This document shows, piece by piece, positions 18,411-62,407 of a DNA stretch of 64,000 nucleotides. The stretch lies in NCBI RefSeq assembly GCF_009914755.1, contig NC_060932.1, one strand, 5' to 3'. Source of the stretch: the human T2T-CHM13v2.0 reference genome, Homo sapiens. The position numbers and the translations under genes are program-made. The notes under the pieces are model-generated. The model did no database searches and was not told where the DNA came from. It saw nothing but the letters and a program-made list of their open reading frames with translations. Each line of letters begins with the position of its first letter. Positions within the stretch are counted from its first letter, which is position 1.

Positions 18411-18592
18411 ACTATATATTTTATCTACCCTTTTCCCATTGGCATACCTAGTATGCACTTTCTCTAAAATAATTTGAAACAAGTTTTCCTATTTAAATTT
18501 CTTCAGCGAGATTTGTTCTACTTCTATGTGTTAATTCTCTTGACAGTTCAATTATGTCAAATACAACTATCTAATACTAAAGATAATACCTT
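18411..18592 (+). repeat. Donor copy of a 182-bp local duplication
   Basis: Matches 19474-19655 except for 3 substitutions. Confidence 0.97.
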
Positions 18593-19425
18593 AGTCTTGT
18601 GGCATGGTACGTATGCTAAAATCTCAAGCTCTTTCACGCCCTTATGATATATATATTCCTTATGATAGCCCCTTTAGGGAATGAGTCATATCATTGCCTG
18701 TGAAATGCTTTAAAAATCTGAGGATAATAAAAAATAGGTTTTAATTGTGTAATTGACAACAGAAAGCAAATCACATTTTTAAAATCTAATGGTACCCATA
18801 CAAAATGAGGCTAGTGAAAATTTAAGTTAGAAAGCTCAGTTGTTTGGATTAGTCAAGACACATGTATAACAAATAGTAACATTTCCAAATTAAGGAACCT
18901 ATCCTGTCAACTATTTGCACCCCCAACGGAGAAAAATATTTACAGCGGTAATAAGAGAGTGAAGAAATGTTAGGAGAAAAACAGTTCTGTTTAGGAATAA
19001 TCGAAGCACAGCCTGGAATAGCTGTGCTCCTCATTTCATGTGATACTTTCAACTTTTGTCCATAAAACACTTTACTAGGTTTTGTTTTTATTTCCTACTT
19101 TACCTGTGCTTCACTAATTTATTTGTTATATGTTCTCAGATATGTATGTATCTTTGTAAAACACATGGTTTTATTTCACATGTATGATTCATGTAAGTGT
19201 ATTTGCTATTAACTCATTCACTCCCATTTTACCTAACATTGTATTAAATTCTGTCTATGTTGCTATACACAAACTAGTTATTTGTGTTGTGTTCAATAGT
19301 GTGTATATATCACATTTCATTTGTTCATTTCCCTAATGATGAACACATAGGTTGCTTTCAGCTCTTCGTTAGTATATGTTGGAAAGAATATTCCCATACA
19401 AGCTTTTGGACTAATGTGAGTTGGT

Positions 19426-19472
19426 ATATATATGTATATATATATATATATATATATATATATATATATATA
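19426..19472. repeat. (TA)n microsatellite, continuing at 19662-19682 after the insertion
   Basis: Direct. Confidence 0.95.
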
Positions 19473-19473
19473 C

Positions 19474-58789: not shown

Positions 58790-60985
58790 AAAACATTTGT
58801 TGTGGTGAAATATATAAAAATTTTATCATTTGAAACTCTACAATTCAGTGGCATTTAATACATTTACAGTGTTGTGAAAGTGTCAACATTATCTGGATCC
58901 ACAGCATTTTCATCACATGAAAAGGAAACTCCAATCTCATTAATTCCCAATTCCTTCTTCCTCCAAGCCTCTGACGACCACTAATTTGCATACTATTTCC
59001 ATGAATTTACCTATTCTGGCTCCTTCATTCATCATGACATTTATAATGCTCATTCATTTTGCAACATTTATTTATATTTCATTTAAGTGCTGAATAATAT
59101 TCCATTGCAAGAATACAAATGTTATTTACACACTCATTAGTTGATGGACATTTCATTTTTTCCATATTTAAATTATTGTGAATACAGTTGTGACAGACAT
59201 TCCTGTACAAGGTCTAGTCTGAACCCTTGCTTTCAATTCTGTTGGGTATACAACCAGAAGGAAAATTCCTGAGTCATATGGTAATTCAATGTTTAATATA
59301 TTAAGAAATCACCCAATCATTTTCAACAGTGGTGGCACAATATTTTGTTCCCATCAGTAATGTACAAGACTTGCAATTTCTTCACATTCTTGCCAACATT
59401 TATTCTCCTTTTTTAAGTTATAGCCAGCCTAGGGGTTACAAAGTGGTATTCCATTGTGGATTTGGTTTGCTTTTCCCTAATGACGAATAACTTTGAGCAT
59501 CATTTTACACATTTGTTGGATATTTGTATATCTTCTTTAGAGAAATGTCTATTCAAATTCTTTGCCCATTTTTGAATTAAGTATTCTTTTTTATTCTAGA
59601 TGTAAGAGTTATCTGTATAATCTAGAAATGAGTCTCATCAGATTTATGATTTTCAAATATATTCTCTCATTCCATGTGTTGTCTTTTTACTATATTTATA
59701 GTGTCCTTTGTGGCATATAAGTTTTAATTTTGATGAAGTTAAATTTCTCTATTTTTTCTTCATTTAGTTATGGTTTTGTACCATATCTAAGAATTGATTG
59801 GCAAACCATGAAGAAACTTGATTCATATCTGTTTCTTCTATCAAACCATATGATCCACAAGATGTGGAGATTTATGTTCATATTTTCTTCAAGATTTAAA
59901 AATCTATTAGGTTTATATAGTTTATTAAGTTTATATTCATTTAGTTTTGTATATGGTATGTGATGAGGGTCCAGCTTTATTCCTTTGCATGTGGCTATCC
60001 AGTCATCCCAGTATCATTTGTTTATGAGACTATTTTTCACAGTTGAATGGTCTTGGTACCCTGGACAAAAATCAATTTAACATAGATATATGAATTTATT
60101 TATAGATTTTTATTTGATTTGACTAAGCTGTATCTCTATTTTTATGCTGGTATTACACTTTCTATTACCAAAGACTTGTATTAAGTTTTGTAATCAGGAA
60201 GTATGAGTTCTCCCACTATGTTCTTCTTTTTCAAGATTATTTTGGCTGTTAAGGCCTCCTTGAAATTTTACAAGAATGTTAGGATCACTATCCACCTTTC
60301 TAATAAAACATAGTGTATTAATAATGAATGCATCAAATCTGTAAATGTCTTTGGAGAACATTTAAAATATTAAGCTTTCCAATCCATGGATATAGGATAT
60401 CTTTCCATTTATTTAGGTCTTTAATTTCTTTTAGCAATGTTTTCTAGTTTTCAGTGAATAAGTCTTGTCCCTCCTGGGACAAACTTCCTTCTAGGTATTT
60501 TGTTATTTTTGATGCTGTGTAAAAATAATTCTTAGGTTGGTGCAAATAATTGCTGTTTTTGCCATTAAAAGTAATGGCAATCCAATCACATCTCACCAGG
60601 TCCCTCCCTGGACACATTAAAAGTAATGGCAAGACTAGCAATTACTTTTGCACCAACCTAATATTTTATTAATTTCCTTTCAAGTGTTCATTGCCAGTAT
60701 ATATAAATACAATTAGTTTTGCTTGCTAATCTTGTATCCTGAAACTTTGCTGAATTATTGGGCTCTACTGGCTTTTTGTTTCTGTGGATTCTTCATGACT
60801 ATGAAATCATGTCAACTGCAAATAGTTTTGCTTATTCCTTTTTGATTTGGTTGCTATTAACTTACTTTTCCTGAAAAATTACATGGAGTATATTTTCTAA
60901 TATACTATTTAAAAGATATGACAGAAGTAGGCACCCTTATCTTGTCCCTGAACCTAGAGGGATGTTTTTATTTTTTCATCATTTT
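58790..60985 (-). mobile_element. L1MB-type 3' portion
   Basis: caattcagtggcattta...tctttagagaaatgtctattcaa...ggcacccttatcttgtccctga. Confidence 0.9.
60532..60661. mobile_element. MADE1 (Hsmar1-derived MITE) with a central insertion and duplication
   Basis: TIRs TTAGGTTGGTGCAAA... and ...TTTGCACCAACCTAA; 18-bp direct repeat around a 34-bp insert. Confidence 0.93.
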
Positions 60986-61637
60986 TCTTGACATCCTCTT
61001 CATCAACTTCTAATTCTATCTCTCTAACTAGAAAAAGAGACCATATCTTTGGGCTCTTTAGTTCTTCATACCTACTTATATACTGATCCAATTATGTTGG
61101 ACAATTAAAATCTATTAGTAGCAATGGATTTACAATGATTTATTGAGTAAACTATTGAGGCCCAAATAATTTTTTGAAAATGGAAAAATTGAATTGTCCA
61201 TATTTTATGCCTGAAGGATCTTATTGTTATGATATTTTATAAAACATGATAAGAGTAATAATGGAGAGGTGTTTGGGCTCCTATGCAAGATCTCTAATAA
61301 AAGAAGTCCTAACAAAATAGGACAGTTTATTGAAGATCTTTTCCTAGGTATTCAAAAAGTACAAGTCAGACTAAGTAACTACCATTCTTCTTATCCACAT
61401 TATGTCATTCATATAGCTATATTCATATAGCTCTGTGGACACTGGCAATCTCTATAGTTTCCTCTGTTCCCATCACAGAGCCCTGTGCTCAACAAGTATC
61501 AATAAATAATTGCCAATAAGTTAAAGGAATGAAAAGAAATCACGGGAACTCAAACTTCCAGCTTGAAACTGAATCACTGCTTTCCTTAGCCAGTGCAACT
61601 AATTTAGTTATTGGTCTGGTAAATAGTCCTGAATATG

Positions 61638-62407
61638 TGTATTAGTTCATTTTCACACTGCTATAAAGACATACTGAGACTGGGTAATTTATAAAGACAG
61701 GAGGTTTAATTGACTCACAGCTCCACATAGCTGGGAGACCTCAGGAAACTCACAATCATGACAGAATGAAGAGGAAAGAGCCCCTTATAAAACCATCGAT
61801 AGGCCGGGTGCGGTGGCTCACGCCAGTAATCCCAGCACTTTGGGAGGCCAAGGCGGGCGGATTACGAGGTCAGGAGGTCGAGACCATCCTGGCTAACATG
61901 GCGAAACCCCGTCTCTACTAAAAATATAAAAAAATTAGCCGGGCGCGGTGGCGGGCACCTGTAGTCCCAGCACTTTGGGAGGCTGAGGTGGGCGGATCAC
62001 GAGGTCAGGAGATCCAGACCATCCTGGCTAACACGGTGAAACCGCCCTCTCTACTAAAAATACAAAAAATTAGCCGGGAGTGGTGGCGGGCGCCTGTGGT
62101 CCCAGCTACTCAGGAGGCTGAGGCAGGAGAATGGCGAGAACCCGGGAGGCAGAGGTTGCAGTGAGCAGAGATCACGCCACTGCACTCCAGCCTGGGGGAC
62201 ACAGAGAGACTCCGTCTCAAAAAAAAAAAGAAAAAAAAAAAAGTCAGATCTCGTGAGAACGCACTCACTATGATGAGAACAGCATCAGGTAAATTGGTCC
62301 CATGATCCAATCACTTCTCACCATGTCCCTCCCTGGACTGGTGAGGATTACGATTCAGATAAAAATTCAAGATAAGATTTGGGTGAGCAAATAGCCAAAC
62401 CATATCA
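61638..62407 (-). mobile_element. MSTA/THE1-type solo LTR interrupted by an Alu
   Basis: tgtattagttcattttcacactgctataaagac...ccaaaccatatca; 5-bp TSD atatg/atacg. Confidence 0.92.
61802..62242 (+). mobile_element. Three-arm AluY (left - left - right)
   Basis: Right-arm start switches back to left-arm sequence at tcccagc (61965-61971). Confidence 0.95.

What the first reader, a model, noticed from the sequence alone, without database searches (positions are those of the whole stretch)
18411..62338. Cluster of three independent local copy-paste repair scars in 45 kb
Seen: three same-orientation, non-tandem micro-duplications (182, 460 and 34 bp) with donors 1.1, 2.4 and 1.7 kb away. Two acceptor sites are hairpin-forming (TA repeat, MADE1) and two junctions carry fold-backs. 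Their different divergences suggest separate events. Inference: this AT-rich domain may be a recurrent germline site of break repair by cis-templated insertion, a class of variation that repeat annotation hides because donors and acceptors are masked.
Basis: inference. Interest (0 to 1): 0.7.

Follow-up and report, generated by a model that had tools for sequence, protein, structure and literature searches.

The report
Three local DNA repair patches
Three short pieces of human DNA were each copied to a spot 1-2.4 kb away, likely as patches during repair of broken chromosomes; this is a known kind of scar, and three in one window is likely within the ordinary range rather than a hotspot.

Summary
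All three duplications are real: 182 bp (3 substitutions), 460 bp (3 substitutions, one 3-bp indel) and 34 bp (2 substitutions), with donors 1.06, 2.44 and 1.73 kb away. Both fold-back junctions are confirmed. They fit the 'repair-mediated duplications' of Pace et al. 2009, with short snap-back junctions like those of polymerase theta.

The hotspot claim is not supported. The same detector found 7 such copies in 20 random 10-kb stretches at >=85% identity, or 2.7 per 64 kb (CI 1.1-5.6), against 3 here (p=0.56). Two more events lie in 40 kb of flank, so mild local enrichment stays open. None of 7 AT-rich random stretches held one. The ages of the 182- and 460-bp events cannot be told apart (p=0.36).

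New details: the 460-bp event used two adjacent pieces of one donor strand. Its donor carries a derived 14-bp hairpin whose new arm starts at the base after the copy ends. MADE1 is over-represented among Pace's acceptors, and the class looks 30-70 times commoner than catalogued (small sample).

The parts
18411..18592 (+). Event A donor, unique DNA
   Evidence: 2 matches in the genome
19425..19473 (.). TA array at the left of acceptor A; its first 17 bases recur at 19666-19682 (low-complexity, target-duplication-like)
19474..19655 (+). Event A acceptor copy (3 substitutions in 182)
19641..19663 (+). A right-junction fold-back: 9-bp perfect stem, 5-nt loop, absent from the donor
39677..40136 (+). 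Event B acceptor copy; homology to distant L1 paralogues is confined to the copied tract (edges within 10 bp)
40132..40185 (.). B complex junction: 13-bp-stem hairpin 40132-40164 and 8-bp-stem hairpin 40163-40185. 40142-40157 is the reverse complement of 42093-42108; 40169-40184 is the reverse complement of 42085-42100; a 9-nt direct repeat lies at 40132-40140 / 40159-40167
42085..42108 (-). Second template of B, ending 5 nt upstream of the main donor
42114..42570 (+). Event B main donor, inside a longer old L1-type element (paralogue homology from about 41826 to at least 43000, the end of the stretch tested)
   Evidence: family name L1 recalled
42550..42581 (.). Derived perfect 14-bp-stem hairpin in the B donor. 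42571-42581 is the reverse complement of 42550-42560, differs from all 6 distant paralogues at the aligned place, and starts at the base after the copied tract
60532..60661 (.). MADE1-type miniature inverted-repeat element, host of event C (15-bp perfect terminal inverted repeat)
   Evidence: the MADE1 name and its link to mir-548 are recalled
60563..60580 (+). 18-bp target-site duplication of C, left copy (right copy 60615-60632)
60580..60613 (+). Event C insert, a 34-bp LTR fragment; net insertion 52 bp
62305..62338 (+). Likely donor of C, within an LTR copy interrupted by an Alu
   Evidence: family name MaLR/MST recalled

Best explanation
These are three short local duplications, each likely made in a separate germline double-strand-break repair in which a broken end copied 34-460 bases from a site 1-2.4 kb away, and their number is likely an ordinary upper-tail value of a common background. 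Shown: the copies, their abrupt ends, the lack of poly(A), the fold-back stems, the 18-bp target duplication and the background counts. Inferred mechanism: a resected 3' end primes on nearby DNA with little or no homology and is extended (SDSA-like); the strand is released, and the ends are closed by rounds of short snap-back and re-priming synthesis that create new microhomology, as described for polymerase theta. In B the left end would have copied 42114-42570 and the right end 42085-42108 from the same donor strand; the right end folded back twice, and the two strands annealed over 5-9 newly made bases. The copy likely stopped where the nascent strand ran into the donor's hairpin and became self-complementary.
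For: Anatomy.
Class: Pace 2009 report 824 events within 5 kb, up to 619 bp, with a distance peak near 1.2 kb. They found microhomology, filler or target duplications of 4-21 nt, and no poly(A) in 39 of 39 proximal cases.
Inverted and direct 3-30-nt templated insertions, built in several rounds and commoner in AT-rich flanks, are polymerase theta products (PMC7165422, passages). TMEJ signatures are reported in the human germline (PMC7615360, passages).
B differences fall on both copies: 2 donor-derived, 1 acceptor-derived, 1 unresolved, so they reflect age.
Background: 7 events in 20 random 10-kb stretches (160 kb effective) at >=85%, window vs random p=0.56; 1 at >=93%, p=0.069, predictive P(>=3)=0.04, about 1,900 of 45,000 windows. 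Five of the 7 were checked as best-local genome-wide.
Against: At >=93% identity the window plus 40 kb of flank holds 4 events in 94 kb effective against 1 in 160 kb (p=0.066). The flanks add two real events.
AT-matched random stretches had 0 events in 7, so against an AT-matched control the region looks richer.
The background sample is small (200 kb) and hand-curated.
No primate empty site could be examined, so the breakpoints, deletions and first-round microhomologies are inferred.
The polymerase is not identifiable from sequence, and tracts of 182-460 bp are far longer than single polymerase theta rounds (rarely over 10 bp).
Confidence: 0.7

Rival explanations
1. The region is a long-lived germline break hotspot: about 85 kb at chr8:115.93-116.02 Mb has been broken and patched five times over tens of millions of years.
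For: Five events in 104 kb, four of them at >=93% identity. 0 events in 7 AT-rich random stretches (P=0.049 if uniform). Fold-backs of >=9 bp lie at 3 of 5 local and 0 of 7 random events (p=0.045; the random events are older, so their stems would be eroded).
Against: All ages together, the local rate is not above random (p=0.47). The unselected flanks alone give p=0.31-0.46. One random stretch 59-69 kb downstream had none. The window was chosen after the fact. Pace et al. saw no clustering trend.
Confidence: 0.15
2. Event B was copied from RNA: both break ends primed on a local transcript of the old L1 (twin-priming-like reverse transcription) rather than on DNA.
For: Both ends were extended on the same donor strand and their tracts abut within 5 nt (42108 / 42114), which is the layout of twin priming. 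RNA-derived templated insertions are described (PMC5110952, part 1 of 4).
Against: No poly(A) and no target duplication at B. No gene is annotated in the window. A single-stranded DNA gap or an extended D-loop gives the same layout.
Confidence: 0.1
3. The 34-bp insert C came from a distant LTR copy or an LTR transcript, and its likeness to the neighbour 1.7 kb away is chance.
For: 14 distant copies match as well as the local one (2 mismatches). The two bases after the insert match 4 of 8 distant copies but not the local donor. The target holds a TT/AAAA site and an 18-bp duplication.
Against: The chance that one of 15 such copies lies within 5 kb is about 5e-5 (15 x 10 kb / 3.1 Gb). The local copy shares two minority bases with the insert; only 3 of the 14 distant 2-mismatch copies have both. 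There is no poly(A), and the duplication begins 4 nt left of where an L1 endonuclease nick would put it.
Confidence: 0.05
4. All three arose in one complex replication or repair accident, or are assembly errors.
For: Same orientation; the age intervals overlap (A 1.5-22, B 0.6-8.7, C 3-97 Myr).
Against: They are 20 kb apart, each has its own local donor, and no pieces are shared. B and C differ in divergence (p=0.04). Both copies of B carry their own later mutations. Direct orientation is also the majority in random stretches (5 of 7).
Confidence: 0.03

Closest known systems
Repair-mediated duplications (Pace, Sen, Batzer, Feschotte 2009, PMC2671141)
   Same: Donor within 5 kb, 50-619 bp, no poly(A), filler, microhomology or short target duplication, two-donor chimeras, MADE1 among the hosts.
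   Different: B and C have repeat-derived donors, which that pipeline excluded. No chr8 acceptor row begins with 1157-1160 in its Table S1 (the hg18 position near 115.9 Mb is my recalled estimate). The second template of B lies 5 nt from the first (their intrachromosomal range was 289-3,432 bp), and the donor itself carries a scar.
Polymerase theta templated insertions (TINS; Carvajal-Garcia 2020, PMC7165422)
   Same: Short inverted and direct repeats of nearby sequence, made in several rounds and creating new microhomology; favoured in AT-rich DNA.
   Different: The main tracts here are 34-460 bp from 1-2.4 kb away, not 3-30 bp from the immediate flank; only the junctions fit.
Short-range template switches (Loytynoja and Goldman 2017, PMC5453318; Walker 2021, PMC7954356)
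   Same: The B donor shows a length-neutral replacement that creates a perfect inverted repeat.
   Different: Here it coincides to the base with the end of a copied tract. Its two 11-nt arms were not found in the 6 supplementary files of Walker 2021 held as text.
Templated sequence insertion polymorphisms (Onozawa and Aplan 2016, PMC5110952)
   Same: Class 2 is a DNA patch at a break without L1 hallmarks.
   Different: Their donors are distant; these are local, and with 2-3 substitutions each they are probably old rather than polymorphic (inference).
'Doublets' (Thomas 2004)
   Same: Short, local paired duplications, as summarised by Pace 2009.
   Different: The paper is not held; it is known to me only through Pace's discussion, so its counts could not be compared.

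Membership tests
Repair-mediated duplication (Pace 2009) | Donor within 5 kb and more than 50 bp away | tested here: met
   gaps of 882, 1978 and 1692 bp
Repair-mediated duplication (Pace 2009) | No poly(A/T) tail; filler, microhomology or target duplication at the junctions | tested here: met
   A fold-back filler, B complex filler, C 18-bp duplication plus 1-nt filler
Repair-mediated duplication (Pace 2009) | Insert at least 50 bp and single-copy elsewhere (pipeline filter, not mechanism) | tested here: inconclusive
   A meets both. B is long enough but L1-derived. C copies 34 bp (net 52) of LTR sequence.
Repair-mediated duplication (Pace 2009) | Empty orthologous site in other primates | not testable with these tools
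   no other eukaryote genome is held. For C the host hairpin closes up if 52 nt are removed; for B homology to paralogues is confined to the copy
Polymerase theta templated insertion | Short inverted or direct repeats of nearby sequence at the junction, in several rounds | tested here: met
   A: 9-bp stem. B: 13- and 8-bp stems and a 9-nt direct repeat. Stems >=9 occur at 1.7% of 1,000 random sites.
Polymerase theta templated insertion | Insert 3-30 bp from the immediate flank | tested here: not met
   main tracts are 34-460 bp from 1-2.4 kb away
Polymerase theta templated insertion | Dependence on POLQ | not testable with these tools
   needs an experiment
L1-mediated insertion / twin priming (class 1 TSIP) | Poly(A) tail | tested here: not met
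   none at A, B or C
L1-mediated insertion / twin priming (class 1 TSIP) | Target duplication starting at an endonuclease site | tested here: inconclusive
   C has 18 bp containing TT/AAAA but offset by 4 nt; B has none; A has a low-complexity 17-mer
L1-mediated insertion / twin priming (class 1 TSIP) | Inverted and non-inverted parts abutting on one template strand | tested here: met
   B only: 42085-42108 and 42114-42570
Segmental duplication | Longer than 1 kb | tested here: not met
   at most 460 bp
Recurrent break hotspot or fragile site | Event density above background | tested here: inconclusive
   p=0.56 at >=85%, p=0.069 at >=93%
Recurrent break hotspot or fragile site | Overlap with fragile-site, replication-timing or meiotic break maps | not testable with these tools
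   no such maps are held

The most novel reading that the evidence does not exclude
The donor is not a passive template. In event B donor and acceptor were altered in one coupled reaction (the donor strand broke or paused at 42570, snapped back and was rewritten as the copy ended there), within an 85-kb stretch that has been patched five times. Such local patches number around 100,000 in the human genome, 30-70 times the catalogued density, with palindromes such as MADE1 as preferred break sites.
Probability: 0.12. Interest if true: 0.6.

Novelty: new member of a known kind. Interest (0 to 1): 0.22.

Why it matters
As a cluster it matters little: it is three more examples of a class described in 2009, at a density that chance allows. 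Three by-products deserve a look. (1) Junction B records at least four rounds of priming and fold-back, and ends at a derived hairpin in its donor. Stems >=12 bp occurred once in 240 kb of other DNA, so hairpins may set where copying stops, or donors may be rewritten during copying. (2) The empirical background, 7 in 160 kb or about 44 per Mb, is far above the catalogued 0.62 per Mb of repeat DNA, so the class may be undercounted 30-70-fold. (3) MADE1 hosts 3 of 824 proximal and 6 of 1,136 total events in Pace's table, against 0.11-0.37 and 0.16-0.51 expected. That suggests a sequence-level preference rather than a domain-level one.

Tried and rejected
Genome-wide background: not possible. Only 20 of 160 planned random stretches and 4 of 20 planned flanking stretches were obtained, so the estimate rests on 200 kb plus 40 kb.

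Rows dropped before counting:
- all Alu-Alu pairs;
- LTR-LTR pairs: L029 115 bp, L031 359 and 49 bp, L039 501 bp (its distant copies at 91% beat the local one at 86%);
- a 64-bp tandem triplet (L029) and a TA/TG microsatellite pair (L032);
- the inverted pair of young L1 3' ends in the window (35908-36279 / 40957-41326) and a 53-bp L1 pair;
- the terminal repeat of MADE1 itself.

Left out as ambiguous:
- two isolated Alu fragments (L020 74 bp, L036 70 bp);
- a 29-bp 86% inverted AT-rich pair in the window (59144 / 61173);
- a 28-bp low-complexity pair in L039;
- three pairs at 78-81% (L026, L036, L042).

L026 (34 bp) and L037 (32 bp) were counted without a genome-wide check.

Pace's strict density (0.04 per window, P(>=3)=1e-5) was rejected as a background because that pipeline excludes B- and C-type events.

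My recollection that Levy 2010 (PMC2836564) names MADE1 as an insertion hotspot was not confirmed (0 occurrences).

A genome-wide count of MADE1 copies with the same duplication could not be run. The bacterial promoter scan was irrelevant. Searches for a later genome-wide catalogue or reported clusters found none; most subscription papers are not held, and bioRxiv supplements are closed.
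Full report
Observation. Unmasked self-alignment of the window gives three same-orientation, non-tandem pairs above 93% identity within 5 kb that are not ordinary repeat paralogues. A is 18411-18592 / 19474-19655, with 3 substitutions in 182 bases, and is found only twice in the genome. B is 42114-42570 / 39677-40136, with 3 substitutions and a 3-bp indel; distant copies reach only 75-77% over full length. C is 62305-62338 / 60580-60613, with 2 substitutions in 34.

Direction. In B, six distant paralogues align across the donor and both its flanks but only across the copied tract at the other site, so 39677 is the acceptor. 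In C the insert splits a MADE1-type hairpin: Rfam mir-548 aligns with 55 nt in a 3-nt loop, a net 52-bp insertion made of 34 copied bases and an 18-bp target duplication. In A the copy at 19474 is flanked by TA runs and ends in a fold-back that the other copy lacks. The family names L1, MaLR and MADE1 are recalled; no repeat library was available.

Junctions. A ends in a 9-bp perfect stem (19641-19663), where the donor has only a partial inverted repeat. This fits snap-back extension of the new strand until it could pair with the TA run. The long TA array may itself be a repair product, since only a 17-base TA-rich word is present on both sides (inference).

B's right junction holds two overlapping reverse-complement copies of the donor's upstream flank (42093-42108 and 42085-42100), two back-to-back hairpins (13- and 8-bp stems, z about -6) and a 9-nt direct repeat. 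Read on the bottom strand it is explained, by inference, as follows. The right end primed at about 42085, copied 16 nt and folded back. It then primed briefly on the left end's new strand, re-primed at 42093, copied to 42108 and folded back again. Finally it annealed to the left end over 5-9 new bases. Both ends used the same donor strand, 5 nt apart. Multi-round inverted and direct templated insertions are what polymerase theta makes, more often in AT-rich DNA (PMC7165422, passages), but its rounds are rarely over 10 nt. The long tracts therefore need another, SDSA-like step.

An unreported detail. The B donor carries a perfect 14-bp-stem hairpin (42550-42581). Its last 11 bases are the reverse complement of 42550-42560, differ from all 6 paralogues at the aligned place with no net length change against 4 of them, and begin at the base after the copied tract. 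Perfect stems >=12 bp occur 4 times in the window, 3 of them at these events, and once in 240 kb of other stretches. The chance of one overlapping a given junction is about 2e-4, or 0.005 over 24 ends. The pattern is that of a short template switch (PMC5453318 and PMC7954356, passages). Either the hairpin was there first and ended the copying, which I favour because the acceptor continues with four bases of the new arm, or donor and acceptor were changed together. Orthologues would decide.

Event C is the weakest link. Fifteen places match the insert at 2 mismatches, one of them the neighbour, and none match at 1. Proximity (chance about 5e-5) and two shared minority bases favour the neighbour, although the two bases after the insert fit 4 of 8 distant copies and not the neighbour.

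Ages. At 0.22% per Myr (the rate as used by Pace) A is 7.5 Myr (1.5-22), B 3.0 (0.6-8.7) and C 27 (3-97). A vs B gives p=0.36, A vs C 0.18 and B vs C 0.04. Divergence alone does not show three events; the spacing and private donors make it likely.

Background. I drew 160 random 10-kb places but could fetch only 20, plus 4 flanking stretches. With one detector and hand curation (dropped rows are listed under Tried and rejected), the random set held 7 events at >=85% identity, in 6 of 20 stretches; five were confirmed as best-local genome-wide. That is 2.7 per window (CI 1.1-5.6), against 3 here (p=0.56). At >=93% it held 1 (0.39 per window, CI 0.01-2.2). The exact test gives p=0.069 and the predictive chance of three or more is 0.04, about 1,900 of 45,000 windows.

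Against my reading: the 40 kb of flank holds two more real events. One is a unique 251-bp inverted copy at 90% just before the window. The other is a 263-bp copy at 97% about 12 kb after it. That makes 4 young events in 94 kb effective (p=0.066). Also, 0 of 7 random stretches with GC<0.39 held an event, which argues against AT-richness as the cause but makes the region look richer than AT-matched controls. The flanks alone are not significant (p=0.31-0.46).

What is known. Pace et al. 2009 (PMC2671141; parts 1-6 of 8 read, Table S1 part 1 and searches) describe 824 such duplications within 5 kb of their donors, with the same junction types, occasional two-donor chimeras and no trend to cluster. 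They note that repeat-derived donors were excluded. No chr8 acceptor row matched the coordinate range I estimate for this window. Their table has MADE1 as host in 3 of 824 proximal and 6 of 1,136 total events. With 2,679 MADE1 copies of median 68 bp (PMC8327481, passages) or a generous 0.6 Mb, 0.11-0.37 and 0.16-0.51 are expected (P<=0.007); detection bias is not controlled. So hairpin acceptors may be a real sequence-level preference. My background, about 44 per Mb (19 per Mb for the 3 unique donors of >=50 bp), is 30-70 times their 0.62 per Mb, on a small sample. TMEJ in the human germline is reported (PMC7615360, passages), as are distant templated insertions (PMC5110952, part 1 of 4). Thomas 2004 was not available. 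My searches found no report of clusters or of this locus.

Verdict. These are real scars of a known class, and the cluster is probably ordinary (0.7), with a modest chance of true local enrichment (0.15). The interest lies in B's anatomy and in the apparent undercount of the class, not in the count of three.

Noticed in passing
window 42550-42581: Derived perfect 14-bp hairpin in the B donor whose new arm starts at the base after the copied tract.
   Followed up: yes
L040:4463-4713 / 6289-6538 (about 3.5-5.5 kb before the window): Unique 251-bp inverted local duplication at 90%, with a 9-bp fold-back at one junction.
   Followed up: partly
L042:1534-1796 / 4408-4670 (about 12-15 kb after the window): 263-bp L1 fragment copied at 97% into another L1 2.6 kb away, with a 6-base word on both sides.
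   Followed up: partly
window 48922-48953: Perfect 12-bp-stem hairpin next to a short imperfect tandem repeat; possibly another template-switch scar.
   Followed up: no
window 40926-41389: Young L1 3' fragment with a 15-bp target duplication and an inverted 53-bp piece (41325-41377), the twin-priming pattern, lying between the B donor and acceptor.
   Followed up: no
window 61803-62243: Alu with a duplicated left arm (135-bp period) inside the LTR that is the C donor; no clear target duplication seen by eye.
   Followed up: no
L023:1323-1486 / 3206-3369: 164-bp piece of what looks like an olfactory-receptor-type gene (recalled likeness) copied, inverted, into an LTR 1.7 kb away.
   Followed up: partly
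Pace 2009 Table S1: MADE1 hosts 6 of 1,136 insertions, one with a 17-bp target duplication like event C.
   Followed up: partly
window 14-543 / 2105-2635: Old 530-bp pair at 67% identity 1.6 kb apart; repeat paralogues or an ancient duplication.
   Followed up: no
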